Shown: positions 1-24,096 of the stretch, piece by piece
Position numbering within the stretch: the first letter of the stretch is position 1
Layout: every line of letters starts with the position of its first letter
Assembly: GCA_000934665.2 (NCBI GenBank)
Contig: KZ538052.1
Span: 1-64,000, forward strand
Length of the DNA stretch: 64,000 bases
Origin: Catajapyx aquilonaris
Taxonomy: Eukaryota
Direction of reading: 5' to 3'
Program-made: the position numbers and the translations under genes
Notes under the pieces: generated by a model
Database searches by the model: none
What the model was told of the DNA's origin: nothing
The model's input: the letters and a program-made list of their open reading frames with translations, nothing else

Positions 1-95
1 ACAGATTTGGAACGAACCCTGTTGTTGCATCCATTTTATTTGGGTCTGCAACGTGTGCCCTCTTGGGTCGCCTTTACGTGGCCCGTTGGGTCACA

Positions 96-189
96 AAACG
101 AAGTGCAAGACATGGCCGACACTTTCTTCAACAATACACTTCAGCTAGCCCATATCTTCGGATACAATGGCAAAAAAGAGAGTCGTTAA
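96..189 (+). pseudogene. 3' part of exon 3 of an upstream WS/DGAT-like copy (copy 0), joined to unrelated sequence on its 5' side
   Basis: Encodes EVQDMADTFFNNTLQLAHIFGYNGKKESR*, matching the last exon of the downstream copies. Bases 1-95 are not homologous to exon 3 and end in ...gggtcaca. Confidence 0.75.
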
Positions 190-1464
190 ATAATGAACTG
201 TTGGATTGCACTAAAATCAAATACCGAACAACAAGATGACATATTCATACATTATAAGGCTGAGAGGGTAAAGGTTGAATGAAGTTTGGGAATATGAAAT
301 TATTTCTGTTAATCACAACGTAACAATCTATGTGTGGCAGGATTGTTGTCTTCAGGAATTATATTAAGTAAGGTAGTTCTTAATAATATTTGGTAAAACA
401 CAGCGTTTGACTAATACGGTATAATTATTACAAGTAGGGCCTAGATAATGAATGGAAAAAATCCGCATATAAAATCATCAAGTAGCAATATTTGTCATTC
501 AAAATGTCACGAATATCGTGAAGAGATTTGGAAATTGTGCTTATATTTTTCAGACAGTATAAAAATTGGAAATGTTTTTGGATTTGCATACTGTTCACTA
601 AAGGTAATACTAATAAATTACACGTAAAAAGGCAGTCATTTAGTTCATAAAGATGTTGCTTTTTTGTGGACATTGAGAGGTTTCTAACGTTGCATATTTA
701 TTTTACGAACTCTCCAATCTTTTCACAAAACTGGAAAATGCAGTGTCGTAGTTTTTCAAACTCAATTTCCCAACTGAGGATCCAATATTCCAGAATCCAG
801 AATTTATTATTTGACTAAGCCCATTCGCAATCCTTGCTGATTCAGATCAAGAAACATTTCCGTCGAAAGTGACACATGAAGTACTAAAACAAATAATCAT
901 ATACTCCAATGGCCTATATACAGCAAGTGATCTTTCACTAAAATATTTTATGTTAACTTAAAGAGTTCAATTATCATTTGCGTTAGTGAAACTTCCTGGT
1001 TCCTTATAGAAAAGAGCAACAGTGCCTCTGTCAGTTGACCTCAAGTTGTCACAATTTTTAAATCATAACTACCCACGATCCCATTATTATCAAAAGAGTA
1101 GCCTACATGTAGCAATACTACAAAGTGTTCCCTCATTATTTGCATAAAGGTTGAGCAAAATTGGGAGATGATTGCAATAAGCCACGATGTTTTTTGCACA
1201 GATTTCAACATGCGTAATAATGGGATTCATTCTTAAGCAACTCACCATCTCATCCTTTCAGAACATAACAAAATGAATTAATCTCGTCCTTGAATTATCT
1301 GGGATAAATCTGTCCGTTTTTTCAGTATCAGTAGCTTACCCAATACGTCCACAAATTAGGCGAGGGAAAATAATTACACTCGAAATGATGTGTTACAGGA
1401 ATACATTGCGGCATTGTTATTGTGCAATTCAGGAACAGCGTGAGTGGGGTAATCAATATTCGCT

Positions 1465-1472
1465 TATATAAA
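1465..1472 (+). promoter_or_regulatory. TATA box of copy 1 (same element at 5690-5697, 8536-8543, 13203-13210, 17062-17069)
   Basis: TATATAAA lies ~60-70 bp before the ATG in all five full-length copies, including divergent copy 4. It is degraded in fragment copy 6. Confidence 0.6.
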
Positions 1473-1533
1473 CGATATCTCTTGGAATCCCAAGTATTGT
1501 ATTAGTTACTATCTCTCATACCACACTGTGGGG

Positions 1534-3355
1534 ATGTACGCCACTCTGTGCTTGGGCCTAGCAAAGGTCATCTTCAACGTCCTTGTATGGGCATTATTTT
1601 CTCTACCTGTATTACAACTCTCACTGGCATTTTGGGTCACATCGCGAGTAGTGGTATGGATGCGATTCGGAAACCAACTCAAGAGGCAACTGAATGGTAT
1701 GGAGAGCTGTTTTGTGACCATGGACGAAACTAAAATGGGGGCAATGGCTGCATTCGGTGTGCTTTCCGGCCCATACGTGGATTTTACTGAACACTTGGAC
1801 AATAATATATTAGCGCAGTGTACCAGAGACTATCCTGAAGTGCCAATGACGTCTCGTCCCGAAAGGATCCTGAACTACTACTACTGGAGACAGGTGGACA
1901 ACTTCAAGGGGACATACCGCTAGCTAGAGGGTGCGGATCCCGAGAAGACCTACACTTACTCGGAGGTGATGCGGATGTACGTGGACAACGTGCATTGCTC
2001 TCCTTTTGCCAAAGATAAGCAAATGCTGGAAGCTCACTACGTACCCAAATGTGTGATGGATGACGATGCGGGGAAGCCAGACGCGGATAACAAGTTTGTC
2101 TACATCTTCAGGAGCAGCCACAGCATGATGGATTGTATTGGGGCACTGAAGGTATGAAAAAAGTAAGGAATCATCGTCATCATTATTATGACTGAGTTTG
2201 GCTATTTTGTATTAAGTTAATTTTTAATGTGCTGCTAAATCTTATGGTGAATTTAGGAAAAACCAAAATGTGAAATGAGTATGCCAGATCGATTATAGTA
2301 GCTTTACCTTTTAGTTTGACAGATCTATGAGTAAATATTTCTGTCCTCTTGTTTCAGATACATGGTGGACCAAACCTTCTCTTACGACGCGATTCCACAG
2401 CTTCCAACAATATCTCCTTGGCTCATGTTCCTTCTTCACGCGGCGGGAATATTGAACATCCCGTACACATTTATGTCCAAGTTATTGAGAAGACTGCTGG
2501 ACTACCATCTGTATCGACTTCCCCCACTTACTGGCAATAACACCTTCTGTGATGTCACTGTGGACATAGAAATGGTCCGATTCATTCACAAGAAAGCTGA
2601 CTGCAACTTTTCCGATGTCATCCTCTCCTCTATCGGCGCCACACTGCAAGTGTACTACAGCACGAAGAAGTTTCCTCCCAGCATCATTCGGTGTGCGATG
2701 CCAATAGCATACCCTTCATCTGATGAGGACATCTTGACACACAACTACACTTTTGTGACCATGCCATTCTCTGGGAAGAAGATGGATGCTCTGGAGCGTC
2801 TGAGAGAAACCAAACGGATGATCAAGGGAATGATGTCGTCTTTGGAAGCCCTGTCGGTGTACTGGGGTCTCAGAATCCTGGGATTCATTCTTCCCTCCTT
2901 CATCTTTCATACATTCGCTAGTTACCTGGATTGTTACGCAATTGTCAGTTACATTCCCGGAAGAGGACCCCAACTCTCCCACAAAGGGAGCTTAATCAAC
3001 GATATTAACTTTATTACAATTCATCAAGATAAGGCAGGCAAGTATGGTGACACACGATTACATTTCGCTAGTGCAAAGAGTACTGTCAATGACAACAACG
3101 GTCGCTTAATCCTCCTTCAAACTACGTATACTGCACATGTTCCCCATAAATTGAGCATTAAGGATTTTTCAATATTTTCCAGGCATTACGATTACCGCGT
3201 CAACATATTTGAAGTCAATGAAGGTCAATTTCCTCGTTGACCATGCTCTGGTTGGAGGCAGAAGCGAAGTGCAAGACATGGCCGACACATTCCTCAACAA
3301 TATCGTTCAGCTAGCCAACATCTTCGGGTACAATGACGAAAAAGAGAGTCGTTAA
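1534..3355 (+). pseudogene. WS/DGAT-like acyltransferase copy 1, nonsense-disrupted (exons 1534-2162, 2358-3037, 3183-3355)
   Basis: Co-linear with the intact copies but has in-frame TAG at 1921-1923 and TGA at 2155-2157. The motif reads SHSMMDC instead of SHxMxDG. Splice sites and frame are otherwise preserved. Confidence 0.85.
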
Positions 3356-3682
3356 ATGAACTGTTGGGAATTGTCTGTGCACAAAAATAAAGAAGCCATA
3401 TCAACATGACATTTTCCCACCCACAATAAATTTTTTATTACTTTCCTGTGGCACATAATTATCAAGAGAATGTTTTAAATCCGGTTATTAAAATTTACTT
3501 ATTTTTATTAGGAATAGTCAGAATAAGAAATTATAGCAATCTTTTCCGAAGCCTATCACAAAATATTTCCTTTGAAAATGAAACAAAAATTCTTCCCGCT
3601 CTCACCGAATAGTGTACTGTACTACAATAGCCAAAAACATGCATACACGTATACACGTTTCTTCCACCCCTAAAATGCAATA

Positions 3683-4880
3683 TTTTTTATTTTTTTATTT
3701 TTTTATTTTGTTTACCCCTTGATAGCCGTAACGGCTTTTCGGGGGACATCCCCCCCAGCAACACATTTGCATACATTTTAATTGCTTACACTCAAAATAA
3801 TCAACAAATAAAAAGAAGGTTATTCACACAAGTCCATAATCTTCAGCAGACCACTGAAAAAAAAGAAAGAGGGCATATGCTTTTTCCTTGGTTAAATGCG
3901 CCAAAAGCCAGTAAAGCCTGTCCGGTGGAACTTTGGGAAACTCCTGTAAGTACCTCAAACTTAGCTGCCGCGTCTGCCTGCACTCCATTAGTACGTGATG
4001 CATAGAAAATGTTTCCTCCAGGTTGCACAAATGACAATTAACTTCCGTTTTAAAAACAATTTTTGCACACTTCAACCAAACGCTCTTTGACATATGTCTG
4101 AGATTGCAGATGAACCTAATGACTGGCAGTGGGAGATTCCAGTTTAAGTAAGGCGTTTTATCCTCGTCTGCACTCCTTATTTCCAAATAGTGTGCATATT
4201 TTTCCTTCCCCGACACCCTACTACAGTCTTCCAGCCTCTTCGATGAATAGCGATTAGCATGCTCCCTGTAGGTCCTACCTCGAAATGTCCCTATCCAACA
4301 TTGATCAGGATGGTCTGGGCTGCAACATATCCAATTTTCAGCCAAATCGAACGGAAAACCAGATCATATCCCATATGACCTTCGGAGGTCAATAGCACGC
4401 TCCCTGTAGGTCCTACCTCGAAATGTCCCTATCTAACATTGATCAGGATGGTCTGGGGGACAACATATCCAATTTTCAGGCATATCGAACGGAAGGCCAC
4501 TAGCCCATATATTTTGTGCCTCCTCCTTTTGCCACTTGTTTGACCAGCTTCAGTTCCAATCTGCAGCTGACAAGGGGACCCCCAAATACTTATACGTCTC
4601 CACAAAATATTTTTTTCCCCGTTGCAATAAAAATGTAATTATTTTGGTAGCCTGCCTCTTTTTCTGTACACCATTATCTTACTCTTCATTACGTTGATCT
4701 GCAGGTTCCTTTTGCACAGGAAGGTTTCCAATACCTTAATTTTCCTAGCCAGATAAATTGGGCTGCTAGCAAAAATGACCAGGTCATCAGCATAAGCTAA
4801 GTAAGATAAATCATCCTGGTTCGGCGCTAAGTTAACACCGGGAGCTCCCTCCTTCCTAAACTCCTCCTCCAAACCTGCTA
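3683..4880 (-). mobile_element. 5'-truncated, decayed non-LTR retrotransposon (LINE) with an internal tandem duplication
   Basis: RT motif YLAYADDLVIF and INVMKSKIMV (4639-4872), VETYKYLGVP near 4575-4605, zinc knuckle CHLCNLEETFSMHHVLMEC (in 3824-4345), and an A-rich 3' tail at ~3683-3710. A ~105 bp block at 4256-4360 is repeated at 4393-4500. Confidence 0.85.
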
Positions 4881-5747
4881 TGTATACTCAGTTCTCCAAT
4901 TTTTCTATTGCCATTTCCGGGGAATGTTTAAATTCGCAAAATTGCAAAATGCAGTGTCGTATTTTTTAAACCCCAATTCCCCAACTGAGGATCTAATATC
5001 ATAAAAATAAGGAAGTCACTGATTTTGTCAGAATTATTTGACTAAGCACAATCGCAATCCTTGCTGACTCAGATCAAGACACATTTCCGTTGAAAGTGAC
5101 ACATGAATTACTTTAACAAAACAATCGTATACTCCAATGGGCTATACTGGATATGTTATCTTACACCCAAATATTTTATGTTAATTTTAAGTGTTCAATT
5201 ATAATTTGCGTTAGTGAAACTTCCTGGTGCCTTAGAAAAGAGCAACAGTGCCTCTGTCAGTTGACCTGAAGTTGTCACAATTTTTAAATTATATAACTAC
5301 CGACGGTCCAATTATTTTCAAAAGAGTAGCCTACATGAAGCAATACTGCAAAATGTTCCATCATTTGCATAAAGGTTGAGCAAAATTAGGAGATGATTGT
5401 AATAAGCCACGATGTTTTTTGCACAGATTTCAACTGCCTTATAATGGGCTTCATCCTTAAGGAACTCACCATCTCATCCCTTCAGAACATAACAAAATGA
5501 ACGATTCTCGTCCTTGAATTATCTGGGATAAATCTGTCAATTTTTTCCATATCGGTAGCTTACCCAATACCTCCTCAAATTAGGCGAGGGAAAATAATTA
5601 CACTCGAAATGATGTGTTACAGGAATAACTATGCGGCATTGTCATTGTGCAATTCAGGAACAGAGAGTGTGGGGTAATCAATATTCGCTTATATAAACGA
5701 TATTTTTTGGAATCCAAAGCGACTATTTCTCATACCACACTGTGGGG

Positions 5748-7582
5748 ATGTACGCCACTCTGTGCTTGGGCCTGGTAAAGGTCATCTTCAACGTCCTTTC
5801 ATGGGCATTATTTTCTCTACCTTTATTACTACTCTTACTACCATTTTGGGTCACATCGCGAGTAGTGGTATGGATGCGATTCGGAAACCAACTCAAGAGG
5901 CAACTGAATGGTATGGAGAGCTATTTTGAGACCATCGACGAAACGAAAATGGGGGCAAATGCTGGATTCTCTGTTATTTCCGGCTCATACGTTGATTTTA
6001 CGGAATCCTGGCACAATTTCTTAGAGCAGTGTTTGAACGACTATCCCGAAGTGCCAGTGACGTCTCGTCCACAAAGGATCCTGAACTACTACTACTGGAG
6101 AGAGGTGGAGAACTTCAAGGTGGGACCCCGCTTGCTGGACGGTGCGGATCCCGAGAAGACCTACACTTACTCGGAGGTGATGCGGATGTACGTGGACAAC
6201 GTGCATTGCTCTCCTTTTGCCAAAGATAAGCAAATGCTGGAAGCTCACTACGTACCCAAATGTGTGATGGATGACGATGCGGGGAAGCCAGACGCGGATA
6301 ACAAGTTTGTCTACATCTTCAGGGGCAGCCACAGCATGATGGACGGTGTTTCGGCCTTTAAGCTGGTAAAAAGGTAAGGAATCATAGTTATCATTATTAT
6401 GACTGAGTTTGGCGTTTTTGTATGAAAGTATTTTTTACTGTGTTGCTAAATTTTTTGGTGAATTTAGGAAAAACCTACATGTTATATGAGTATACCTGTT
6501 CGCGTAGAGCAGCTTTACCTTTTAGTTTAGTTTGACAGATCTATGAGTACATTTTCTGTCCTCTTGTTTCAGATATGGTGCGGACCAAACCTTCTCTTAC
6601 AACGCGATTCCACAGCTTCCAACAATATCTCCTTGGCTCATGTTCCTTCTTCACGCGGCGGCAATATTGAACATCCCTTACACATTTATGCCCAAGTTAT
6701 TGAGAAGACTGCTGGACTACCCTCTGTATCGACTTCCCCCACTTACTGGCAATAACACCCTCTATAATGTGACTGTGGACATAGAAATGGTCCGATTCAT
6801 TCGCAAGAAAGCTGAATGCAACTTTTCCGATGTCATCCTGTCCTCTATCGGCGCCACACTGCAAGAGTACTACAGCACGAAGAAGTTTCCTCCCAGCATC
6901 ATTCGGTGTACGATGCCATTAGCATACCCTTCATCTGATGAGGACATCTTGACACACAACTACACTTTTGTGACCATCCCATTTTCTGGGAAGAAGATGG
7001 ATGCTCTGGAGCGACTGAGAGACACCCAGCGGATGATCAAGGGAATGATTATGTCTTTGGAAGCCCTTTCGGTGTACTGGGGTCTCAGAATCATGGGATT
7101 CATTCTTCCCTCCTTCATCTTTCATACCCTCACTAGTTACCTGGATTGTTACGCAATTGTCAGTTACATTCCCGGAAGAGGACCCCAACTCTCCCACAAA
7201 GGGAGCTTAATCAACGATATTAACTTTATTACAATTCATCAAGATAAGGCAGGCAAGTATGGTGACACACGATTACATTTTGCTAGTGCAGATAGTACTG
7301 TCAATGACAACAACGGTCGCTTAATCCAAGTCTTAATCCTCCTTCAAACGACGTATACTGTACATGTTTCCCATAAATTGATCATTAAGAATTTTTCAAT
7401 ATTTTCCAGGCATTAGCATTACCGCGTCAACATATTTGAAGTCAATGAAGGTCAATTTCCTCGTTGACCACGCTCTGGTTGGTGGCAGAAGCGAAGTGCA
7501 TTACATGGCCGACACTTTCCTCAACAATATTGTTCAGCTAGCCAACATCTTCGGATACAATGACGAAAAAGAGAGTCGTTAA
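5748..7582 (+). CDS. WS/DGAT-family acyltransferase copy 2, 492 aa (exons 5748-6373, 6573-7252, 7410-7582)
   Basis: Hydrophobic N-terminus, SHSMMDG (HHxxxDG-like), NFSDVILSSIGATL (TVNDV-like), SYIPGRGPQL (SNVPGP-like) and GISITASTY...VNFLVD C-terminal motifs. Open frame after splicing. Intron 2 donor is AG|GCAAGT. Confidence 0.85.
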
Positions 7583-8603
7583 ATGAACTGTCGGGAATTT
7601 TCTTTGCACAAAAATAAAGAAGCTATAACAACATGACATTTCCCACACACATTTCCTTATTTATTATTTTATTGTGGCACATAATTATTAAGACAAAGTC
7701 TTAATTCCGGCTCTTATTTACTTATTTTTATTAGGAACAGTCAGAATAAGAAATTATAGCAATCTTTTCCGAAACTTATTGCGGAATATTTCTTTTGAAA
7801 ATGAAACAAAAATTCTTCCAGCTCGCGCTCTCAACGAATAACGTACTGTAGGCTACTATTACTACAATAGCCAAAAACATGCATAAGTACAAGTTTCTTC
7901 CACCCCTAAAATTCAATAAATAACTAAGAGTGTCTCACATAGTAGTGGTAAATATTTACAACATTGAAAATAATAAGGAGACTGTTGAGATTCGTATCAG
8001 TGACTTTGCAATGTTTCACTAATTAATTTAAAGAGTTCAATTATAATTTGCGTTAGTGAAACTTCCTGGTTCCTTAGAAAAAGAGCAACAGTGCCTCTGT
8101 CAGTTGACCTGAAGTTGTCACAATTTTTAAATCATAACTACCCACGGTCCAATTATTATCAAAAGAGTATAGCCTACATGTAGCAATACTGCAAAATGTT
8201 CACTCATTTGCATAAAGGTTGAGCAAAATTGGGAGATCCTTGTAATAAGCCACTGTGTGTTTTGCACAGATTTCAACTGCCTTAGGTATAATGGGCTTCA
8301 TTCTTAAGCACCTCACCATCTCATCCTTTCAGAACGTACCAAAATGAATGAATCTCGTCCTTGAATTATCTGGGATAAATCTGTCCGTTTTTTCAGTATC
8401 AGTAGCTTACTCAATACGTCCACAAATTAGGCGAGGGAAAATAATTACACTCGAAATGATGTGTTACAGGAATATATTGCGGCATTGTTATTGTGCAATT
8501 CAGGAACAGCGTGAGTGGGGTAATCAATATTCGCTTATATAAACGATATCTCTTGGAATCCCAAGCATTGTATTAGTACTATCTCTCATACCACACTGTG
8601 GGG

Positions 8604-11600
8604 ATGTACGCCACTCTGTGCTTGGGGCTGGCAAAGGTCATCTTCAACGTCCTTGTATGGGCCTTATTTTATCTACCTTTATTACTACTCTCGCTGCCAT
8701 TTTGGGTCACATCGCGAGTCGTGGTATGGATACGCTTCGGAAACCAACTCAAGAGACAACTGAATGGTATGGAGAGCTGTTTTGTGACTATGGACGAAAC
8801 TAAAATGGGGACAATGGGTGCATACGGTGTGCTTTCCGGCTCATACGTGGATTCTACGGAATCCTGGCACGATATGTTAATGCAGTGTATGAACGACTAT
8901 CCCGAAGTGCCAATGACGTCTCGTCCAGAAAGGATCCTGAACTACTACTACTGGAGACAGGTGGACAACTTCAAGGGGACATACCGATTGCTGGAGGGTG
9001 CGGATCCCGAAAAGACCTACACTTACTCGGAGGTGATGCGCATGTACGTGGACAACGTGCATTGCTCTCCTTTTCCCAAGGATAAGCAAATGGCGGACGT
9101 TCACTACGTACCCAAATGTGTGATGGATGACCAGACGGGAAAGCTAGACGCGGAGAACAAGTCTTTCTACATCTTTAGGGGCAGCCACAGCATGATGGAC
9201 GGTATTGCGGCCCTTAAGCTGGGGAAAAGGTAAGGAGAGGGTTGTGAACCGAACCGAACCCTTGCTCCGTGAACCCGATAACAGCGAACCCGCTCCGGAG
9301 CAGTAGAGTCGGAGGCCGGAGCGAGCGTCGGAACGTGGTTCGGGTTCAAGGCGGTTCAGGGGAAGAGTGGAGCGAAGGTCGGAGCTGGTTCGGAGCGAAC
9401 GGATCCGGAGGTGAACCCGGTTCAGGAGCGGGGTTCGGAGCGGGCTCCGGAGCGGGTTCGGAGCGGTTCAAAGCTTGGTTAGGTACAACATACCAACCCA
9501 ACAGGGGAAGAGGCATCAGTAAAACCGATGGATTTAATCCAGAGTATGCATCATGTTTTCATGGTGGGAGAATGACATTTCCAAGCACCCGCGATACAGG
9601 GTGTACCGCAAATGTCACATTTTCATGTCATGCGCATTTTGGAATGTTACACTATCATATTATTGTAACATACAAAAAAATGCATATAACATGAAAATGT
9701 GACATTCAAAAAATGGGTATGAGATATTGTGGGATACAAAAATTCGTGTGACATATTGCAGCATTCAAAAATGCGTATGACAAAATCCCTATCCTTACCC
9801 CATGTCCTTTCATCCTTGCACCGGAGTTAGAAGAAAAAGCAGAAAATTGCAGGAAAAATGGTGGTATTCCACTCCCCTATAAGGGCCTATGGCCCTATCA
9901 CGGGGTAACGTAAAAAAATTAAGATTAATTTTTTGTTTAAAAATGCGTTTGACATATTGTAGCACACAAAAATGCGTATGACATGAGAATGTGACATCCA
10001 AGAAATGGGTATGACAGTCATATTGTGGCATACAAAAATGCGCATGACATGAAAATGTGGCATTTGCGGTACACCCTGTATCGCGGGTGCTTGGAAATGT
10101 CATTCTCCCACCATGAAAACATGATGCATACTCTGGAGTAAATCCATCGGTTTTACTGCCTTTCCTTCTGCATGTTAGGTTGGTATGTTGTACCTAACCA
10201 AGCTTTGAACCGCTCCGAACCCGCTCCGGAGCCCGCTCCTGAACCGGGTTCACCTCCGGATCCGTTCGCTCCGAACCAGCTCCGACCTTCGCTCCACTCT
10301 TCCCCTGAACCGCCTTGAACCCGAACCCCGTTCCGACGCTCGCTCCGGACTCCGACTCTACTGCTCCGGAGCGGGATCGCTGTTATCGGGTTCACGGAGC
10401 AAGGGTTCGGTTCGGTTCACAACCCTGGGTAAGGAATCATCGTCATCATTATTATGACTGAGTTTGGCGATTTTGTATTAGTAATAATTTTTAATGCGTT
10501 GCTAAATCTTATGGTGAATTTATGAAAAACCTACATGTGAAATGAGTATATGCCAGTTCGCGTATAGCAGCTTTACCTTTTAGTTTGACAGATATATGAG
10601 TAAATTTTTCTGTCCTCTTGTTTCAGATATTGGGCGGACCAAACCTTCTCTTACGACGCGATTCCACAGCTTCCAACAATATCTCCTTGGCTCATGTTCC
10701 TTCTTCACGCGGCGGCAATATTGAACATCCCGTACACATTTATGTCCAAGTTGTTGAGAAGACTGCTGGACTACCATCTGTATCGACTTCCTCCACTTAC
10801 TGGCAATAACACCCTCTGCATTGTGTCTGTGGACATCGAAATGGTACGATTCATTCGCAAGAAAGCTGACTGCAACTTTTCCGATGTCATCCTATCCTCT
10901 ATCGGCGCCACACTGCAAGAGTACTACAGCACGAAGAAGTTTCCTCCCAGCATCATTCGGTGTGCGATGCCCTTAGCATACCCTTCATCTGATGAGGACA
11001 TCTTGACACACAACTACACTTTTGTGACCATCCCATTCTCTGGGAAAACGATGGATGCTCTGGAGCGACTGAGAGACACCAAGCGGATGATCAAGGGAAT
11101 GATGTCGTCTTTGGAAGCCCTGTCGGTGTACTGGGGTCTCAGAATCATGGGATTCCTTCTTCCATCCTTCATCTTTCATACCTTCGCTAGTTACCTGGAT
11201 TGTTACGCAATTGTCAGTTACATTCCCGGAAGAGGACCCCAACTCTCCCACAAAGGGAGATTAATCAACGATATGAACTTTATTACAATTCATCAAGATA
11301 AGGCAGGCAAGTATGGTGACACACGATTACATTTCGCTTAGTGCAAAGAGTACTGTCAATGACAACAACAGTCGCTTAATCCTCCTTCAAACTTCGTATA
11401 CTGTACATGTTCCCCATAAATTGAGCATTAAGAATTTTTCAATATTTTCCAGGCATTACGATTACCGCGTCAACATATTTGAAGTCAATGAAAGTCAATT
11501 TCCTCGTTGACCATGCTCTGGTTGGAGGCAGAAGCGAAGTGCAAGACATGGCCGACACATTCCTCAACAATATCGTTCAGCTAGCCAACATCTTCGGGTA

Positions 11601-11625
11601 CAATGACGAAAAAGAGAGTCGTTAA
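8604..11625 (+). CDS. WS/DGAT-family acyltransferase copy 3, 492 aa (exons 8604-9229, 10627-11306, 11453-11625)
   Basis: Same motifs and an open spliced frame. Intron 1 carries a 1.19 kb foldback insertion and intron 2 is GC-AG. Confidence 0.85.
9597..10078. mobile_element. Tc1/mariner-like MITE nested at the centre of the foldback element
   Basis: TA|CAGGGTGTACCGCAAATG ... CATTTGCGGTACACCCTG|TA. Same CAGGGTG terminus type as the MITE at 58891-59140. Confidence 0.55.
9784..9930 (+). mobile_element. 5'-truncated SINE 3' tail inside the nested MITE
   Basis: aatccctatccttaccc...gcaccggagtt..gaagaaaa matches the reverse complement of 46290-46347. atggtggtattccactcccct...ggcccta.cacggggta matches the reverse complement of 55985-56035. 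Confidence 0.65.
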
Positions 11626-13271: not shown

Positions 13272-15655
13272 ATGTACTACGCCACTCTGTGCTTGAGCCT
13301 GGTAAAGGTCATCGTCAATGCCCTTAGCTGGGTCATCTTTGGTCTCCCTTTACTACTGCTCTCACTGCCATTTTGGGTCACATCGCGAGTAGTGGTATGG
13401 ATGCGATTCGGAAACCAACTCAAGCGGCAACTGAATGGTATGGAGAGCAATTTTGTGACCATCGACGAAGCCAAAATGGGAGCAATGGCTGGATTCTCTG
13501 TGCTTTCCGGCCCCTACGTGGATTTGACCAAACACTTGGACAATAATATATTAGCGCAGTGTACCAGAGACTATCCTGAAGTGCCAATGACGTCTCGTCC
13601 CGAAAGGATCCTGAACTACTACTACTGGAGACAGGTGGACAACTTCAAGGGGATATACCACTTGCTAGAGGGTGCGGATCCCGAGAAGACCTACACTTAC
13701 TCGGAGGTGACGCGGATGTACGTGGACAACGTGCATTGCTCTCCTTTTGCCAAGGATAAGCAATTGGCGGACGTTCACTACGTACCCAAATGTGTGATGG
13801 ATGACCAGGCGGGGAAGCCAGACGCGGAGACCAAGTTTGTCTACATCTTCAGGGCCAGCCACAGCATGATGGATGGTATTGCGGCCTATAAGGTGTTAAA
13901 GAGGTAGTCCATCATTATCGTCGTTATGATTAATACTGCGTTTGACGATAATGTATAGTTATTTTTTAGTATGTCACTAAAATTAGGGCGACTTCTTCAA
14001 GTGATCAGAGACTACTTAACAATATGATCTGATTCTCTCACAATCACTAGTTAGAGAGAGTGACACAAAAGGTCTTCCACATACACTTCTACAACGAAGC
14101 AATTGTGAAGGATGGGAGAAATGCCGATGAGTTCATCTTGTCCCCTCCGTTTCAGATATCTGGTAGACCAAACCTATACATACGACGCGATTCCACAGCT
14201 CCCAAAAATATCTCCTTGGCTCATGTTACCCCTTCACGCGGCGGCAATATTCAACATCCCTTCCACATTCAATCCTCTCGTGATCAGAAGATTGTGGAAC
14301 AACAATCGACTACCTCGACTGAGTGGGAAGAAATTTTTCTGCGCTGCCACTCTGGATATCGAAATGATCCGATTCATTCACAAACGAGCTGGATGCAACT
14401 TTTCCGACGTTATCCTCTCTTCTATCGGAACAACACTACAAAAATACTACAGCAAGCAGAAGTTTCCTCCGAACATCATTCGTTGTGCAATGCCCTTAGC
14501 ATACCCTTCATCTGATGAGGATATCCTGACACACAACTACACTTTTGTGACCGTCCCATTCTCGGGGAAGAAGATGGATCCTGTGGAGCGACTGAGACAC
14601 ACCCAACGAATGGTCACGAGAATGAAGATGTCTTTGGAAGCCCTGTCTGTGTACTGGGGTCTCAGAATCCTGGGATACCTGCTTCCTTCCTTCATCTTTC
14701 ATAATATGGCCAGTTATACTGATTTTCGCGCATATATCAGTTACATTCCCGGAAGAGGACCCCAACTCTCCCACAAAGGGAGATTAATTGACAGTATTGG
14801 CTTTACTACAATTCATCAAGGCAGGACAGGTGAGTGACAGCACTGAGTCCATATTGCAGTGATCCAATTGGGAAATTGGCGAACTACATGAAGCAAAACA
14901 TAAGTAAACCACCTTCAGGCAATATAAATCACTAGAAGTGATATTCAGTCTGATCAGCATCTTGGTCTAATTAAGTTCGTCATGGTTGACGATGGTCTAT
15001 GAATGTCATTAGATGATGCCGAAGTATCGTCCACAAATTTGAAGTTAAGTGAAATCTACTTACAATACTTTCATGGTAAGAACATTGGGTGGAATTTTCG
15101 TCCCACTGATAGTTACTGCTAACTAAGCAGTACTATTGCCATCACTGGTACTGCAAGTTAGCAGTAACTATCAGTGAGACGAAAATTCCACCCATTCGTT
15201 TATTATCTCGTTATAATTGGCCATTATCACTCTCTTATATTCGGTATATTTCAAATCCAAAGTTACAAAGAACTCTTTCTGTCAACCAGATATTTGCAGC
15301 TAATATTTTTTACCTTCTGAACGTAACCGTTATAAACTATGCGCTAAGCAACATGCAGCCAACTTGTAAGTCGAACATTCTGATAACAGAAACGGGTCAG
15401 TTCCATTCTAACACTCGGATATGAAGAAGAGTCAGTTTGTAATTGACTTCGTCATAAATTGCTTTCTACTTCGCAGGTATCGCGATTACTGCAAATACAT
15501 ATCTGAAGAAAATGACGGTCAATTTCTTAGTGGACGCAGCTCTGGTCAAAGACAGAAGTAAAGTGCAAGACATGGCTGACACTTTCCTTGAGAACACTCT
15601 TCAGCTAGCCAATATCTTCGGGTACAATGATGAAAAAGACAAAAATATTTTGTAG
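13272..15655 (+). CDS. WS/DGAT-family acyltransferase copy 4 (divergent sub-type B), 494 aa (exons 13272-13903, 14156-14829, 15477-15655)
   Basis: SHSMMDG motif and an open spliced frame ending DEKDKNIL*. Distinct introns, canonical AG|GTGAGT donor at intron 2, and a divergent exon 2 start (STFNPLVIRRLWNNNRLPRLSGKKF). Confidence 0.85.
15086..15194. repeat. ~110 bp near-perfect hairpin (MITE-like) in intron 2 of copy 4; second copy at 21470-21580
   Basis: tgggtggaattttcgtcccactgatagttactgctaact pairs with agttagcagtaactatcagtgagacgaaaattccaccca. Confidence 0.8.
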
Positions 15656-16328
15656 AGACCACTGTTAATCTTCTTTACATCAGAACTAGACCGGATGTGA
15701 AAAACTATATCTTTTACAATACTGGAATAAAATCTTTGCTTCCAACGTGAATGACCAACATGTAAGTAATCCTAAGCCTTGGTCATGAGCTGTATTACTA
15801 ATCAATGTTCGTTGTAAAAGTAAATGGACCATTCACGAACATACTACATTGTACTCCTGATTATCCGGGCTAATGACTGCACATGTAATGCCATAAAGTA
15901 CCTCTAAAGTTCAGCGTAGTCCGGTAGGGTCGCCACATACCTGGGGAGTGAAATGTCTCATGGCGCTCTCAAGTGAGCACCTTCCGCAAAACGCCCCGGT
16001 AGGGGGTAGGTGGGAGTGTCCAGACCTGAGTATTCTATGACCATGGGCGCAAAGATCGCGTGACACATATTCGAACGCACCCGCCGGCCCGAGCCAGCTC
16101 GAAGTACAGCCGATTCTTACTTGCGACGTTGCCAACTTGCCGGCCTTCACCCTCCACTCCACTCCACCCCGTCCACTTTCGGTCGGACGTTTCGAAAGTC
16201 CTTCCCAATTTTTGCAATACATGTACTACATTGCCTTCATTGCATTAGGCATGATCACTAAATGCAATATTAATAAATTATATGTAAAAAGGGTTCCACA
16301 GTCATTTAGTTCATAAAGATGTAGCTTT

Positions 16329-16482
16329 GAAGGAAGGAAGCGGCTGTGGCCTATTTTTACGGAAACTACCCCAGAATTGTCCTGGAGGGGACCATGGAAA
16401 ACCACACAAAACCATGGTCAGGGTCGCCGGCCCCGGATTCGAACCCAGGACCTCCCGATTAGCAGGCGGGCTCCCTATCCCC
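16329..16482 (-). mobile_element. tRNA-derived SINE, 5' portion
   Basis: Minus strand has B-box GGTTCGAATCC followed by ggtttt..gtggttttcc...ctccaggacaa...ggccacagccgcttccttcc. The last motif recurs at 56215-56240. Confidence 0.75.
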
Positions 16483-17130
16483 TACACCAACCTGCATCGG
16501 TCATATAAGTTCTCCAATGGCCTATATTATGTGATCTTTCACCCAAATATTTTATGTTAAAGAGTTCAATTATAATTTGCGTTAGTAAAACTTCCTGGTT
16601 CCTTAGAAAAAGAGCAACAGTGCCTCTGTCAGTTGACCTGAAGACTGAAGTTGTCACAATTTTTAAATCATAACGACCCACGGTCCAATTATTTTCAAAA
16701 GAGTAGCCTGCATGTAGCAATATTGCAAAGCTCATAAAGGTTGAGCAAAATTGGGAGATGATTGTAATAAGCAACGATGTTTTTTGCACAGATTTCAACT
16801 GGCTTATAATGGGCTTCATTCCTAGAAGCAACTGACCACCCATCTCATCCTTTCAGAACATAACAAAATGAATGAATATCGTCCTTGAATTATCTGGGAT
16901 AAATCTGTCCGTTTTTTCAGTATCGGTAGCTTACCCAATACGTCCTCAAATTAGGCGAGGGAAAATAATTACACTCGAAATGATGTGTTACAGGAATATA
17001 TTGCGGCATTGTTATTGTGCAATTCAGGAACCCAGAGAGTGTGGGGTAATCAATATTCCCTTATATAAACGACATCTCTTGGAATCCCAAGCATTGTATT
17101 AGTTACTATCTCTCATACCACACTGTGGGG

Positions 17131-20100
17131 ATGTACGCCACTCTGTGCTTGGGCCTGGCAAGTGTCATCTTCAACGTCCTTGTATGGGCATTATTTTCTC
17201 TACCTTTCTTACTACTCTCACTGCCATTTTGGGTCACATCGCGAGTCGTGGCATGGATGCGATTCGGAAACCAACTCAAAAGACAACTGAATGGTATGGA
17301 GAGCTATTTTGTGACCATGGACGAAACTAAAATGGGGGCAATGGCTGCATTCGGTGTGCTTCCTGGCACATACGTGGATTTTACGGAATCCTGGCACACT
17401 TCGTTAGTGCAGTGTATGAACGACTATCCCGAAGTGCCAGTGACGTCTCGTCCAGAAAGGATCCTGAACTACTACTATTGGAGACCGGTTGAAAACTTCA
17501 AGGGGGAATCCCGCTTGCTGGAGGGTGTGGATCCCGAGAAGACCTACACTTACTCGGAGGTGATGCGGATGTACGTGGACAACGTGCATTGCTCTCCTTT
17601 TGCCAAGCATGAGCCAATGGGGGACGCTCACTACGTACCCAAATGTGTGATGGATGACGATGCGGGGAAGCCAGACGTGGAGAACAAATATGTCTACATT
17701 GGCAGGGCCAGCCACTGCATGATTGACGGTATTTCGGCCCTTAAGCTGGGGAAAAAGTAAGGAATCACCGTCATCATTATTATGACTGAGTTTGGCGATT
17801 TTGTATTAAGTAATTTTTAATGTGTTGCTAAATCTTATGGTGAATTTAGGAAAAACCTACATGTGATATGAGTTATACCGATCCTCCCTCACGGCCCACC
17901 TTCCCCGTCCTGCTAGTCCCTACTTCTTGTCCAGCTCACCCTCTTCTCCTATAGTCCAGTCAAATGGTTGGTTTTCCCGTAACTAGATTGCGGATTTTTT
18001 TTCTCAGAGGTTCTATATGTTTTTTGAGGTGCTGAATCCGCATTTCAAGTTTTCTGCTTTGTAGGAGGTCGGCTTCACCACGGAAAACGTTAAAAACCGC
18101 AAAGTTTTCACATTTTTTTCAGTTTTTCGCTCATCTCTCGAAGACTATACGTTTTGCGAAGATGCCCACTCTATATAAAATTAAAGTAGACAAACTTTCC
18201 TACAAAATGCACTGGTCAACGTAGATCTTATGACGAGCGGTTTCGGCTCTAGAGCGCGCTGAAAAACAGCGATTTTTTGGCCCTACTGCGAAAACGTGAA
18301 AAAACGCCCACTCCCACCTGTCTATCTCTCATCGGCGCTATACTTTCGATGTAGGCATATTACGCTTAAAAGTGGTTGTTTTGAATGAATAGATGGCAAT
18401 AAAGGAGGAAGTTTGTACATATATTTATTTATTCATTCATTTATTTATTTATCACGCATAATTAAGCCACTTCCCGGGTAAGGAGACCGCTGAAATTTCT
18501 CACGCTCATGTCTTACACATCGGTGACCCCGGGAAAAGTCCCCAAAACCGCACTTTTTTGAGTCTAAAGGCCTCTACACCAAGAGCTACACAAATTAGGC
18601 GGAAGGCTGAGCGGGCGGAAAACGTGCGATTGGGGCGCGGAATGTGAGTGGTGGCAATTCACAAATTCAAGCGGTGGCGCTGCGGGCGGAAAGTGGTGCG
18701 GTGGGAACGTGGGAACCGCTCAAGTCCACCTGGATGGACTTGTGCGATTGCCACCGCTCAGTTCCGCGCCCCAAACCGCGTCCCCAAACGCACTCTTGCC
18801 GCCCGCTCAGGCTTCCTCCGAATTTGTGTAGAGACCTTAAGGGCGGTTTTCAGCGGCCTTCGAGTTGAACAAAAAACTGAAACAAGTGCGAAAATTTTGC
18901 GGTTTTTCACGTTTTCCGTTGTGAAGCCGACCTCCTGCAAGGCAGCAAACTTGAAATTCGGATTCAGTACCCCCCCCCCCCCAACATATAGCACCGTAGA
19001 GAAAAAACTTCCGCAATGATTTTATTTGTTACGAAAACGGCAGTTTTGAACACCGATTGACTGTACTATGACCTCCACAGACTTATCGGGTCTTGACCCG
19101 GTGTCCTTCTTGCAACCCTTTTCCAATCCTCCCCAAGTCATATACCAATACCTTGACCCACAAAGCCATAAATAGGAAGTGGACTGGTTTTTCTCACTAT
19201 CCTTTGCCCTGATCAGGTCCTTCCTTCCTACTCCTTCTCACTGTATTTATGTACAATATTGTAATATACTAGTTATTAGCCAACCCTATTGTACTTCATT
19301 CCCCCTGACTCTCAAAGTAGCCTACCGTCACATATTCTACCAATTCGCGTATATCAGCTTTATCTTTTAGTTTGACAGATCTATGAGTAAATTTTTCTAT
19401 CCTGTGTTTCAGATATGGTGTGGACCAAACCTTCTCTTACGACGCGATTCCACAGCTTCCAACAATATCTCCTTGGCTCATGTTCCTCCTGCACTCGGCG
19501 GCAATATTCAACATCCCTTACACATTTATGCCCAAGTTGTTGAGAAGACTGCTGGACGACCATCTGAATCGACTTCCCCCACTTACTGGCAATAACACCC
19601 TCTGCACTGTGTCTGTGGACATCGAAATGGTCCGATTCATTCGCAAGAATGCTGACTGCAACTTTTCCGATGTCATCCTCTCCTCTATCGGCGCCACACT
19701 GCAAGAGTACTACAGCACGAAGAAGTTTCCTCCCAGCATCATTCGGTGTGGAATGCCCTTAGCATATCCTTCATCTGATGAGGACATCATGATACACAAC
19801 TACACTTTTGTGACCATCCCATTTTCTGGGAAGAAGATGGATGCTCTGGAGCGACTGAGAGACACCCAACGGATGATCAAGGGAATGATTATGTCTTTGG
19901 AAGCACTGTCGGTGTACTGGGGTCTCAGAATCCTGGGATTCCTTCTTCCCTCCTTCATCTTTCATGCATTCGCTAGTTACCTGGATTGTTACGCAATTGT
20001 CAGTTACATTCCCGGAAGAGGACCGCAAATTTCCCACAAAGGGAGCTTAATCAACGATATGAACTTTACTACAATTCATCAAGATAAGGCAGGCAAGTAT

Positions 20101-20410
20101 GGTGACACACGATTACATTTCGCTAGTGCAGAGAGTACTGTCAATGACAAAAACGGTCGCGTAATCCTCCTTTACACTACATGTACTGTACATGTTCCCC
20201 ATAAATTGAGCATTAAGAATTTTTCAATATTTTCCAGGCATTACCATTAGCGCGTCAACATATTTGAAGACAATGAAGGTCAATTTCCTCGTTGACCATG
20301 CTCTGGTTGGAGCCAGAAGCGAAGTGAAAGACATGGCCGACACTTTCCTCAACAATGTTGTTCAGCTAGCCAACATCTTCGGATACAATGAAGAAAAAAA
20401 GAGTCGTTAA
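17131..20410 (+). CDS. WS/DGAT-family acyltransferase copy 5, 492 aa (exons 17131-17756, 19413-20092, 20238-20410)
   Basis: Motif SHCMIDG and an open spliced frame. Intron 1 is expanded by ~1.46 kb of insertions and intron 2 is GC-AG. Confidence 0.85.
17951..19069. mobile_element. Non-autonomous DNA transposon with ~190 bp imperfect inverted arms, inside a larger insertion (~17880-19340) in intron 1 of copy 5
   Basis: Termini atagtccagtcaa / ttgactgtactat. 18030-18140 is the imperfect reverse complement of 18860-18970. An extra internal hairpin lies at 18586-18832. Confidence 0.75.
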
Positions 20411-20575
20411 ATGAACTGTCGGGAATTTTCTTTGCACAAAAATAAAGAAGCTATAACAACATGACATTTCCCACACACATTTAATTTTTCATTGCTTTCC
20501 TGTGGCACATAATTATTAAGAGAATATTTTAAATCGGGCTCTTATTTACTTATTTTTATTAGGAACAGTCAGAAT

Positions 20576-20578
<3 letters not shown>

Positions 20579-20662
<84 letters not shown>
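20579..20662. repeat. (AT)42 microsatellite
   Basis: Pure AT run at a site that reads aaattatagc in the other copies. Confidence 0.95.
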
Positions 20663-20664
<2 letters not shown>

Positions 20665-21182
20665 CTATCTTTTCCGGTACTTATCACGGAATATTTCCTT
20701 TGAAAATGAAACAAAAATTCTTCCCTCTCTCACAGAATAATGTACTGTACTGCAATAGCCAAAAACATACATACCGGTACGTACAAGTTTCTTCCGCCCC
20801 TAAAATTCAACATAACTAAGAGTGGCTCGCATATACTGTAGGAGTGATAAATTATTGCGCACATTGCAACTAGCTAAAAATTGGCTTTGTTGTTAAGCAA
20901 CTCACCGTCTTATCCTTTCGAAACACACACACAAAAAAATCCGCACACCTTAGCCAGAATAAACTATCGAGCACGATACAACCTTCAGCTTTTTTCAACA
21001 TTTGTCCCAATCATGGATCCCCTAAGATGATGCAAGGAAAAGTAATTATACTCAGAGTGATGTGTTACATGTACATATTGCGGCAATATTCTACAATGCC
21101 CATTGTGCAATTTACAAACTGCGAGCGTCGGGTAATCTATAGCAAAAATTCTCATAGAAAGGATCGCTCCTTGACTCACTAT

Positions 21183-22086
21183 ACAGTATTGGGTTTACTA
21201 CAGTTCATCAAGGCAGGACAGGTGAGTGACAGCACTGAGTCCATATTGCAGTATCCAATTGGGAAATTGGCGAACTACATGTAGCAAAATATAAGTAAAC
21301 CACCTTCAGGCAATATAAATCACAAGAAGTGAAATTCAGTCTGATCATCTTGGTCTAATTCAGTTCGTTATGGTTGACCACGGTCTATGAATGTCATTAG
21401 ATGGTGCCGAAGTCTCGTCAGCAAATTTGAAGTCCAATCAAGTTACAATACTTTCATGGGAAAAAACATTGGGTGGAATTTTCGTCCCACTGATAGTTAC
21501 TGCTAACTTAGCAGTACTATTGCCATCACTTGGTACTGCTAAGTTAGCAGTAACTATCAGTGAGACGAAAATTCTACCCATTCATTTATTATCTCGTTCT
21601 AATTGGCCATTATCACCCTCTTATATTCGGTATATTTCAAATCCAAACTTACAAAGAACTCTTTCTGTCAACCAGATATTTGCAGCTAATATTTTTCACC
21701 TTCTGAACGTAACCGTTATAAACTATGCGCTAAGCAACATGCAGCCAACTTGTAAGTCGAACATTTTCATAACAGAGACGGGTCAGTTCCATTCTAACAC
21801 TCGGATATGAAGAAGAGTCAGTTTGTAATTGACTTCGTCATAAATTGCTTTCTACTTTGTAGGTATCGCGATTACTGCAATGACATATCTGAAGAAAATG
21901 ACGGTCAACTTCCTAGTGGACGCAGCTCTGGTCAAAGACAGAAGTGAAGTGCAAGACATGGCTGACACTTTCCTTGAGAACACTCTTCAGCTAGCCGACA
22001 TCTTCGGATATAATGATGAAAAAAAACAAAGATACTTGATGAGACCACTGTTAATCTTCTTTACATCAGAACTAAACCTGATGTGA
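21183..22086 (+). pseudogene. Internally deleted sub-type B copy (copy 6): end of exon 2, intron 2 and exon 3 only
   Basis: Upstream region 20850-21170 matches the copy 4 promoter, then jumps to cagtattgggtttactacagttcatcaaggcaggacag|gtgagt. Intron 2 and exon 3 (from 21863) match copy 4, with an altered, extended C-terminus. Confidence 0.85.

Positions 22087-24013: not shown

Positions 24014-24096
<83 letters not shown>

What the first reader, a model, noticed from the sequence alone, without database searches (positions are those of the whole stretch)
96..22086. Actively evolving tandem array of membrane-anchored WS/DGAT-type acyltransferases in an animal genome
Seen: seven units (4 intact, 1 nonsense pseudogene, 2 fragments) with near-identical promoters, introns and 3' flanks, which implies recent birth and death of copies. 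Known: HHxxxDG is the catalytic motif of the WS/DGAT and condensation superfamily, best characterised in bacteria and plants. Here the first His is Ser (SHSMMDG/SHCMIDG) and the catalytic second His and the Asp are kept. Inference: this is a lineage-specific expansion making a diversified set of acylated products (wax esters, cuticular or signalling lipids, or other acylated small molecules). It is the best candidate in the window for an undescribed system.
Basis: partly seen in the sequence, partly recalled or inferred. Interest (0 to 1): 0.8.

Follow-up and report, generated by a model that had tools for sequence, protein, structure and literature searches.

The report
Tandem wax-synthase-like genes in an arthropod
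A run of recently duplicated genes for a fat-ester-making enzyme type known from bacteria and plants really lies here, four copies intact and three broken, but it is one young branch of an old invertebrate gene family whose products in animals appear untested, not a new kind of system.

Summary
The array is real. The window holds four intact three-exon genes (492-494 aa), one nonsense pseudogene and two remnants. One remnant appears to be the tail of a sixth full gene, split by an LTR-like insertion across a contig break. The WS/DGAT family is confirmed by Pfam, profile-to-PDB and fold searches. A public contig from a second study shows U5 with its GC-AG intron removed. Flanks are 76-97% identical among four copies but not for U4, and copies are mosaics. 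The array is one of three young bursts in a family of at least 35 loci in this genome. Relatives occur in insects, springtails, crustaceans, a millipede, an annelid and cnidarians, some apparently in tandem. The His-to-Ser motif change occurs in 8 of 156 relatives. Best reading: membrane-anchored acyl-CoA:fatty-alcohol acyltransferases making wax-type esters, with the product inferred only. Evidence for diversified products is weak. The scan earlier noted a paralogous array elsewhere in this genome. Verdict: new member of a known kind, interest 0.33.

The parts
1..95 (.). Right end of a young LTR-like repeat (ends ...CA; element about 450-460 bp in two older copies) inserted in exon 3 of unit U0; it breaks the contig
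   Evidence: 13 of 16 genome matches are 99-100% identical over at least 91 bases. This end and the end of contig C6940 lie in one 458-bp and one 451-bp element. A 4-bp target duplication AAAC flanks the two ends.
96..186 (+). U0: 3' part of exon 3 of a pseudogene whose upstream part most likely lies on contig C6940 (SHSMMDG motif, TAG in exon 1, GC donor at intron 2)
   Evidence: the join between the contigs is inferred, not bridged by reads
1534..3355 (+). U1: pseudogene, exons 1534-2162, 2358-3037, 3183-3355; stops at codons 130 and 208; motif SHSMMDC
3716..4890 (-). Truncated LINE-type retrotransposon remnant between U1 and U2 (ends approximate)
   Evidence: RVT_1 E=2.4e-8, above cut-off; weak zf-RVT E=0.022; summed depth about 8,000-11,000 in bin 3944-4579
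5748..7582 (+). U2: intact gene, 492 aa, exons 5748-6373, 6573-7252, 7410-7582; SHSMMDG; GC-AG intron 2
   Evidence: WS_DGAT_C above cut-off on exon 2
8604..11625 (+). U3: intact gene, 492 aa, exons 8604-9229, 10627-11306, 11453-11625; SHSMMDG; GC-AG intron 2
   Evidence: PF06974 at 11018-11302 above cut-off
9237..10427 (.). Non-autonomous DNA transposon in U3 intron 1: terminal inverted repeats of about 420 bp (92%), 8-bp target duplication GGTAAGGA that copies the splice donor
   Evidence: high copy by depth; the label hAT-like is recalled from the 8-bp duplication, not from a call
13272..15655 (+). U4: intact, most divergent gene, 494 aa, exons 13272-13903, 14156-14829, 15477-15655; SHSMMDG; GT-AG intron 2
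   Evidence: WS_DGAT_C E=3.7e-9; TIGR02946 E=7e-13, far below its cut-off
17131..20410 (+). U5: intact gene, 492 aa, exons 17131-17756, 19413-20092, 20238-20410; SHCMIDG; repeat insertion of about 1.46 kb in intron 1; GC-AG intron 2 spliced out in a public contig
   Evidence: table 8, run X5 record 31 lies on 19859-20089 and 20235-20450 with 0 other letters, skipping 145 bases, the intron length
20852..22086 (+). U6: deletion derivative of a U4-type gene: upstream region, then the last about 40 bases of exon 2, intron 2 and exon 3; exon 1 and most of exon 2 absent
   Evidence: 12898-13227 matches 20852-21177 (75%) and 14791-15853 matches 21183-22241 (92%); junction
1464..1502 (+). Core-promoter-like element about 70 bases upstream of the ATG (shown for U1): TATATAAA in all five full genes, and an ATTAGT initiator-like word about 30 bases further on in U1, U3, U4 and U5 (absent in U2)
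   Evidence: sequence shown; the reading as TATA box plus arthropod initiator is recalled; start sites not tested

Best explanation
A tandem array of host genes for WS/DGAT-family (CoA-dependent, HxxxD) O-acyltransferases in an arthropod. Each protein has a hydrophobic N-terminal segment of about 35 residues, followed by basic residues, that probably holds it on the cytosolic face of the ER or of lipid droplets (inferred). Behind it lie the two WS/DGAT subdomains. The kept second His deprotonates an alcohol that attacks a long-chain acyl-CoA, most likely a fatty alcohol from the genome's many fatty acyl-CoA reductases, giving wax-type esters such as cuticular or secreted lipids (inferred from the family, not shown). 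The first His is structural in bacterial enzymes and is replaced by Ser here and by Asn in the sister array. The array grew by unequal crossing-over, copies swap segments by gene conversion, and copies die by nonsense changes, transposon insertion and deletion (shown in sequence). Shown: structure, family, splicing of U5, mosaicism, pseudogenes. Inferred: topology, activity, substrates, tissue.
For: Exon 2 of U2, U4 and U5 passes the Pfam WS_DGAT_C cut-off (3 of 3 tested). Two genome paralogs pass both WS_DGAT_cat and WS_DGAT_C (2 of 3 tested). A profile of 12 family rows hits only the two solved WS/DGATs strongly (7nxg E=2e-20, 6chj E=5e-17). The model of paralog C125b (35-39% identical to the window exons) ranks 6chj and 7nxg first. 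Window exon 1 peptides score E=6e-14 to 3e-12 on a profile of 125 outside relatives; shuffles score below zero. dN/dS is 0.39-0.70 between copies and about half the codons are near zero, so there is purifying selection. U5 is spliced in run X5. The position matching Ala144 of Marinobacter WS1, where Val favours short acyl-CoA (PMC8787340, passage), is Ala in all four intact copies. The genome has 15 matches to the reductase C-terminal domain PF03015. An archaeon whose WS/DGAT has Asn in place of the first His makes wax esters (PMC11948995). A 123-bp tract is shared exactly by U1 and U4 (p=0.0002, 0.002 after 10 pairs).
Against: No activity data exist here. PF03007 did not match exon 1 of any window copy (0 of 4 at E<=1), and TIGR02946 scores are far below cut-off. 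Identity to characterised enzymes is only 13-16%, too low to fix substrates. Replacing either His lowers A. baylyi activity (PMC11948995 section 16, citing its ref. 41). About half of the codons fit omega=1, which suits relaxed, redundant copies. Many reductases are not a specific sign, since they also feed hydrocarbon and ether-lipid pathways (recalled). Only U5 has a transcript-like contig shown, and the kind of run X5 is not on record.
Confidence: 0.55

Rival explanations
1. Same enzymes, but the copies are largely redundant: the array is dosage plus neutral birth and death, and all intact copies make much the same product. This differs from the first reader's 'diversified set'.
For: Three of seven units are dead. 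About 50% of codons fit omega=1. The positions matching Ala144, Leu356 and Met405 of Marinobacter WS1 do not vary among the four intact copies. All five codons flagged as positively selected differ by multi-nucleotide changes. Gene conversion is present.
Against: M2a beats M1a (p=0.005 for four intact copies, 4e-7 with pseudogenes, 0.004 in the sister array). Amino-acid variation is higher in channel-lining segments (permutation p=0.02 for U2/U3/U5, 0.10 with U4; post hoc for this array). In the separate C3316 array those segments hold 17 amino-acid against 0 silent variants (Fisher p=0.0002; permutation p=0.05).
Confidence: 0.4
2. The enzymes acylate something other than fatty alcohols: diacylglycerol (storage fat), sterols or ecdysteroids, or small glandular, pheromone, defensive or dietary alcohols.
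For: Bacterial WS/DGATs accept diacylglycerol and cyclic, branched or aromatic alcohols (PMC9113324, passage). Repeated young bursts resemble detoxification or chemical-signal families (inference). One paralogous array lies next to a P450 gene (locus L045). The sister array has bulky Leu/His/Phe at the Ala144 position.
Against: The genome also has about 5 DGAT2/MOGAT-type genes for storage fat (19 exon matches on 2 contigs). The window copies keep Ala at that position. The plant members with membrane segments named in the review are mainly wax synthases (PMC9113324).
Confidence: 0.3
3. The His-to-Ser change and further drift have made these weak or dead enzymes that persist for a non-catalytic role or are decaying.
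For: Both histidines matter in A. baylyi (PMC11948995 section 16; title of Stoveken 2009 seen in a reference list). The catalytic-domain Pfam model is missed by exon 1.
Against: The second His and the Asp are kept in all copies, and Gly is lost only in the pseudogene U1. 22 of 156 relatives have a residue other than His first, 8 of them Ser. About 45-50% of codons are under strong purifying selection.
Confidence: 0.1
4. The units are mis-assembled haplotypes or alleles of one or two loci.
For: The assembly is fragmented (20,583 contigs). No read or contig spans the array and no single-copy control region was laid. The three DNA runs are one sample and may be the source of the assembly.
Against: Five versions differ by dS 0.10-0.36 and carry different transposon insertions. 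Unit-specific and spacer contigs lie with 0 other letters at similar depth (26-45), including pieces across the spacer-U2, U3-spacer and spacer-U4 junctions.
Confidence: 0.03

Closest known systems
Bacterial WS/DGAT: Acinetobacter baylyi AtfA/WSD1 (PDB 7nxg) and Marinobacter aquaeolei WS1 (PDB 6chj)
   Same: Same two-subdomain CoA-dependent acyltransferase fold, xHxxxDG motif and PF06974 domain; best sequence and structure matches.
   Different: 13-16% identity in the fold match; added N-terminal hydrophobic segment; first His replaced by Ser; introns; far below the TIGR02946 cut-off.
Plant WSD family (Arabidopsis WSD1-11, Petunia WS1)
   Same: Eukaryotic multi-copy WS/DGAT-type family with membrane segments, making cuticular wax esters (PMC9113324 and PMC12062176, passages).
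   Different: No plant sequences were in my tree, so the relationship was not tested. Here the only strongly hydrophobic segment is N-terminal.
Uncharacterised invertebrate WS/DGAT-like proteins (e.g. Orchesella ODN04367.1 'O-acyltransferase WSD1', Penaeus XP_037772879.1 'tgs1', Tribolium madens XP_044270536.1, Chamberlinius CHUAL_003848/49/53/54, Nematostella EDO39941.1)
   Same: Same family and length; an N-terminal hydrophobic segment in 80 of 125; SH motif in 8 of 156; neighbouring copies in the millipede and three full units in one weevil gene model.
   Different: Only 21-26% identical to the window proteins. The window copies belong to a clade almost confined to this genome. Names are automatic; I found no functional study in the searched library.
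Halobacteriales WS/DGAT with NHxxxDG (PMC11948995)
   Same: Natural loss of the first His in an organism that makes wax esters.
   Different: Asn rather than Ser; archaeal; the paper infers, in the passages I read, that this enzyme is responsible.

Membership tests
WS/DGAT (WSD) family | C-terminal domain PF06974 above the Pfam cut-off | tested here: met
   U2 25.4, U5 26.2, U4 37.2 bits against 20.7; U1 and U3 above cut-off in the genome scan
WS/DGAT (WSD) family | N-terminal catalytic domain PF03007 above the Pfam cut-off | tested here: inconclusive
   0 of 4 window exon-1 peptides match, but 2 of 3 genome paralogs pass, and window exon 1 matches those paralogs and a profile of outside relatives. 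The spliced window protein was not scanned against Pfam.
WS/DGAT (WSD) family | Catalytic His and Asp of the HHxxxDG motif | tested here: met
   Second His, Asp and Gly kept in U2-U5 and aligned to the motif of 7nxg and 6chj through profile A1
WS/DGAT (WSD) family | Strict HHxxxDG with the first His | tested here: not met
   Ser in all six array members. The first His is also absent in 22 of 156 relatives and in 22 of 30 archaeal WS/DGATs (PMC11948995), so it is not treated as defining for the wider family.
WS/DGAT (WSD) family | WS/DGAT fold | tested here: met
   Met for paralog C125b folded with alignment A1 (pLDDT 69; 6chj and 7nxg ranks 1-3, E 1.5e-12 to 5e-11, TM about 0.5). The window protein itself was not folded whole; exon 1 alone gave an unusable model.
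WS/DGAT (WSD) family | Wax-ester and/or triacylglycerol synthase activity | not testable with these tools
   needs enzyme assay
Bacterial WS/DGAT subfamily TIGR02946 | Score above the curated cut-off 309.95 | tested here: not met
   48 bits for U4 exon 2, no match for U3 exon 1, 69 and 106 bits for two paralogs
NRPS condensation domain / other HxxxD acyltransferases | Condensation domain as best family or fold match; NRPS context | tested here: not met
   Condensation domains rank below WS/DGAT in the fold search and score E=0.035 in the profile search; no other domains in the 492-aa proteins

The most novel reading that the evidence does not exclude
This animal branch of WS/DGAT enzymes is the unidentified arthropod wax-ester and alcohol-acylating machinery. 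In this lineage it has radiated into at least 35 genes, with three separate young arrays (Ser-His, Asn-His, His-His) whose acyl and alcohol channels are being retuned by positive selection and by gene conversion that shuffles segments between neighbours, giving a combinatorial blend of cuticular or signalling esters.
Probability: 0.2. Interest if true: 0.65.

Novelty: new member of a known kind. Interest (0 to 1): 0.33.

Why it matters
A 2012 paper states that no wax synthase gene had been identified in insects and that the HHxxxDG motif was not found in the animal sequences it aligned (PMC3334986, passages). A 2022 review lists WS/DGAT members from bacteria, plants and protists only (PMC9113324, passages). 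The searches here show the family in butterflies, mosquitoes, beetles, springtails, krill, shrimp, a millipede, an annelid and cnidarians. An assay of any of these would test whether this is the missing arthropod wax synthase. This array adds a natural series of four close variants and a natural first-His substitution. The open question does not depend on this array, and it is easier to test in a model beetle or mosquito, so the interest of the array itself is moderate.

Tried and rejected
Word-index protein searches were nearly blind: U4 exon 2 against longer proteins gave 0 of 464 candidates, and profile A1 gave 1 of 6035. The full HMMER search was needed (5757 hits at E<=0.001). A single-sequence fold of U3 exon 1 was unusable (pLDDT 46). 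Rfam found nothing in 1-24000. The run search listed no RNA holder; this blank is not used. Low X5 depth on U1 and U2 bins could not be assigned to a copy. Recent horizontal transfer was considered because some paralogs lack one or both introns. It is not needed, as relatives span cnidarians to insects and the genome's copies nest among hexapod sequences; no named bacterial or plant rows were in the tree, so an ancient transfer was not tested. The first hit P0002 (weevil, E=2e-77) is not a close relative; its score comes from three full units in one gene model. The alternative donor at 2151 in U1 changes phase and does not give an open frame. Ten literature searches returned no functional or evolutionary study of animal WS/DGATs; four of them were poorly aimed, and the library lacks most subscription papers. 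Look-up of earlier findings by sequence gave one unrelated note. PMC12933353 (passages) gave nothing used.
Full report
OBSERVATION. Self-comparison of the window shows blocks of 700-3000 bp at 80-94% identity within 1-22,300. Splice-site inspection and translation give five full three-exon genes on the + strand. U2, U3 and U5 encode 492 aa and U4 494 aa without stops. U1 has stops at codons 130 and 208 and Cys in place of the motif Gly. Intron 1 is phase 2 and GT-AG. Intron 2 is phase 1, GC-AG in U1, U2, U3 and U5 and GT-AG in U4 and U6. U6 is a U4-type copy that has lost exon 1 and most of exon 2. U0 is the tail of exon 3. The count of 4 + 1 + 2 is therefore right. Protein identity is 72-90%, dS 0.10-0.36 and dN/dS 0.39-0.70 over 10 of 10 pairs. 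Flanks are close only among U1, U2, U3 and U5 (76-97%); U4 is 58-70% and its intron 2 does not align.

THE ARRAY EXTENDS UPSTREAM. Contig C6940 ends in a sixth gene with the same SH motif, a TAG in exon 1 and an exon 3 that stops where U0 begins. Bases 1-95 of the window are a young repeat (13 of 16 genome matches at 99-100% over at least 91 bases). This end and the end of C6940 are the two ends of one 451-458 bp element in 2 of 2 older copies examined. Both are flanked by AAAC, and the termini are TG and CA. I read this as an LTR-type insertion (class recalled from these features) that split one pseudogene across two contigs. No read bridges the gap. The array then has six full genes (four intact) and one deletion remnant.

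IS IT REAL? Contigs of three DNA runs of one sample, possibly the source of the assembly, lie on unit-specific and spacer sequence with 0 other letters at depth 26-45, including pieces across 4857-5222, 12000-12304 and 12932-13388 (only the longest of more than 13,000 pieces were shown). No piece spans the array and no single-copy control was laid, so copy number is not proven; some bins at 60-90 may hide further copies or cross-mapping. Five versions at dS 0.10-0.36 with different transposon insertions are hard to explain as alleles. Run X5, from another study with the same species label and kind not on record, has a 448-base contig lying on 19859-20089 and 20235-20450 with 0 other letters. 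The skip is 145 bases, the length of U5 intron 2, shifted by the CAG present at both ends. So the GC donor is used and U5 is most likely transcribed. I laid 4 of the 5 listed runs and 1400-20450 of the region.

FAMILY. Exon 2 passes the Pfam WS_DGAT_C cut-off in 3 of 3 copies tested; exon 1 matches no Pfam family in 4 of 4. Two of three long-ORF paralogs from the genome pass both WS/DGAT domains. A profile of 12 rows (6 paralog ORFs, 6 window exons) finds 7nxg (E=2e-20) and 6chj (E=5e-17) and aligns the motif to HHxxxDG. The model of paralog C125b, which includes a short in-frame intron read through, has pLDDT 69 and ranks 6chj and 7nxg above condensation domains. The language-model search returns WS/DGAT clusters dominated by arthropods. 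A profile of 125 outside relatives, themselves found with the genome's profile, scores the spliced window proteins at E 1e-58 to 1e-64, exon 1 alone at about 1e-13 and the 3 of 5 shuffles that were printed below zero. TIGR02946 scores are far below cut-off, so these are not members of the bacterial subfamily.

CONTEXT IN THE GENOME. U4 exon 2 has 36 matches, which I count as 35 genes on 18 contigs; exon 1 has 33 matches; PF06974 adds three more places. These are lower bounds, and some near-identical copies on short contigs may be alleles. A quick tree held 28 genome rows and 71 outside rows: hits up to P0075 of 380-640 aa, the three units of P0002, P0080 and fragment P0010. Left out were C8337 (mis-spliced model) and about nine unmodelled genome copies. 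27 of 28 genome rows form one branch (SH-aLRT 100) with one unnamed outside fragment inside. That branch sits in a group (97) with springtail, beetle, butterfly and mosquito proteins. Within it are three young bursts: the SH array (6 rows), its NH sister (C3002, C4101; 6 rows) and an HH array (C3316; 4 rows). Both intron positions are shared by the 17 paralogs modelled, one of them doubtful; some deeper paralogs lack one or both. The genome has 1 weak odorant-binding-protein match and 1 weak odorant-receptor match, so I call it an arthropod and go no further.

CONTEXT ELSEWHERE. The HMMER search found 5757 representatives at E<=0.001, of which 150 were listed. I looked up 29 of them (30 look-ups, one repeated); named ones come from Anthonomus, Tribolium, Battus, Ochlerotatus, Orchesella, Allacma, Meganyctiphanes, Penaeus, Oratosquilla, Chamberlinius, Owenia, Nematostella and Hydractinia. 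Best identity to the window proteins is 21-26%, apart from fragment P0010 at 37%. Four millipede genes have locus numbers 003848, 003849, 003853 and 003854 on a contig of the same length, and one weevil model holds three full units, so local duplication recurs. Among 156 aligned relatives (2 short fragments of 158 dropped) the first motif residue is His 134, Ser 8, Asn 7, other 7. An N-terminal hydrophobic segment is present in 80 of 125. Neither the SH motif nor the anchor is special to this array.

MECHANISM. By family knowledge the second His is the catalytic base and the first is structural; archaeal enzymes often have Asn there, and one such archaeon makes wax esters (PMC11948995, passages and section 16). 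Residues 3-37 are hydrophobic (peak 2.0-2.3) and followed by Arg/Lys, which suggests an anchor or hairpin with the enzyme in the cytosol (inference). Ala144 of Marinobacter WS1 governs acyl length and residues 356, 360 and 405 alcohol choice (PMC8787340, passages). By the alignment, the matches to 144, 356 and 405 are Ala203, Leu387 and Gln432 (U3 numbering; 360 falls in a gap; mapping uncertain at this distance). They do not vary among the intact copies. The NH sister array has Leu, His or Phe at the Ala144 position. The genome has 15 matches to the fatty acyl-CoA reductase C-terminal domain. The simplest reading is long-chain acyl-CoA plus fatty alcohol giving wax-type esters. This step is inferred.

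EVOLUTION. A permutation test on 355 variable sites finds identical tracts in 3 of 10 pairs after correction: U1-U4 (123 bp, p=0.0002), U1-U3 and U1-U2. The latter two could also reflect strong conservation of the 3' part. U4 is close to the others in exon 1 (dS 0.15-0.25) but far in exons 2-3 (0.42-0.48), so it is mosaic. My own codon models favour a small class with omega>1 (p=0.005 for four intact copies; 4e-7 with U1 and C6940; 0.004 in the NH array), but about half the sites fit omega=1, conversion is present, and all five flagged codons involve multi-nucleotide differences. Channel-lining segments, chosen after I had seen the variable sites of this array, show more amino-acid variation (permutation p=0.02 for U2/U3/U5, 0.10 for all four, 0.09 NH, 0.05 HH). 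The ratio of amino-acid to silent variants is not raised here (p=0.29 and 0.12) or in NH (0.9), but is in HH (17:0 against 55:45, p=0.0002). Functional diversification is possible but not shown.

LITERATURE. I saw search listings for ten searches and passages of PMC9113324, PMC11948995 (plus section 16), PMC8787340, PMC12933353, PMC12062176 and PMC3334986. No supplements were read; genome-paper supplements on expanded gene families could mention this family. None of what I saw describes an animal WS/DGAT functionally. PMC3334986 (2012) says no wax synthase gene had been identified in insects. The library lacks most subscription journals, so absence is not established.

VERDICT. A real, young, partly expressed tandem array of WS/DGAT-family acyltransferases, within a large lineage-specific expansion of an old invertebrate family. 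The remaining interest is that the animal branch seems untested and may hold the arthropod wax synthase. New member of a known kind; interest 0.33.

Noticed in passing
L038, L039, L040 (G000 C3002, C4101): Sister array of six intact genes with NHxxxDG and bulky Leu/His/Phe at the position matching Ala144 of Marinobacter WS1; these may prefer short acyl-CoAs and are candidates for an alcohol short-chain acyltransferase.
   Followed up: partly
L041-L043, L050 (G000 C3316, C8337): Youngest array (HH motif, end branches 0.02-0.05): 17 amino-acid and 0 silent variants in the channel-lining segments against 55 and 45 elsewhere, the best sign of diversifying selection in the family. Some copies could be alleles.
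   Followed up: partly
window 3038-3182, 7253-7409, 11307-11452, 20093-20237; C6940: A GC-AG intron 2 fixed in five copies of the SH array, while U4, U6 and the other 16 modelled paralogs have GT; use of the GC donor is shown for U5.
   Followed up: yes
window 9229-10435: A high-copy non-autonomous transposon inserted exactly at the U3 intron-1 donor; its 8-bp target duplication leaves a donor on both sides.
   Followed up: partly
window 1-95 and at least 12 other contigs: A very young LTR-like repeat, often at contig ends, so probably recently active and a cause of assembly breaks.
   Followed up: partly
window 23136-about 24900 (+): Gene resembling an SLC22/organic-cation transporter directly downstream of the array (resemblance recalled; three exon pieces gave no Pfam match); contains a long (ATT/ATC)n run near 24010-24100.
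   Followed up: no
window about 26700-43173 (-): Large ion-channel gene (Ion_trans E=1e-24), by recall of the cyclic-nucleotide-gated type, apparently with long low-complexity exons.
   Followed up: no
L045:4143-5165 (G000 C125) and L031:4580-6697 (G000 C4248): A cytochrome P450 exon follows the C125 paralogs, and a long single-exon ionotropic-receptor-like gene (Lig_chan, just under cut-off) lies between the two C4248 paralogs.
   Followed up: no
G000 C363, C1897, C2860, C3471, C11: Fatty acyl-CoA reductase genes and DGAT2/MOGAT-type genes also occur as local clusters in this genome.
   Followed up: no
P0002 (Anthonomus grandis XP_050310852.1): A 1660-aa gene model with three complete WS/DGAT units: either three tandem genes fused by annotation or a true triple enzyme.
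   Followed up: no
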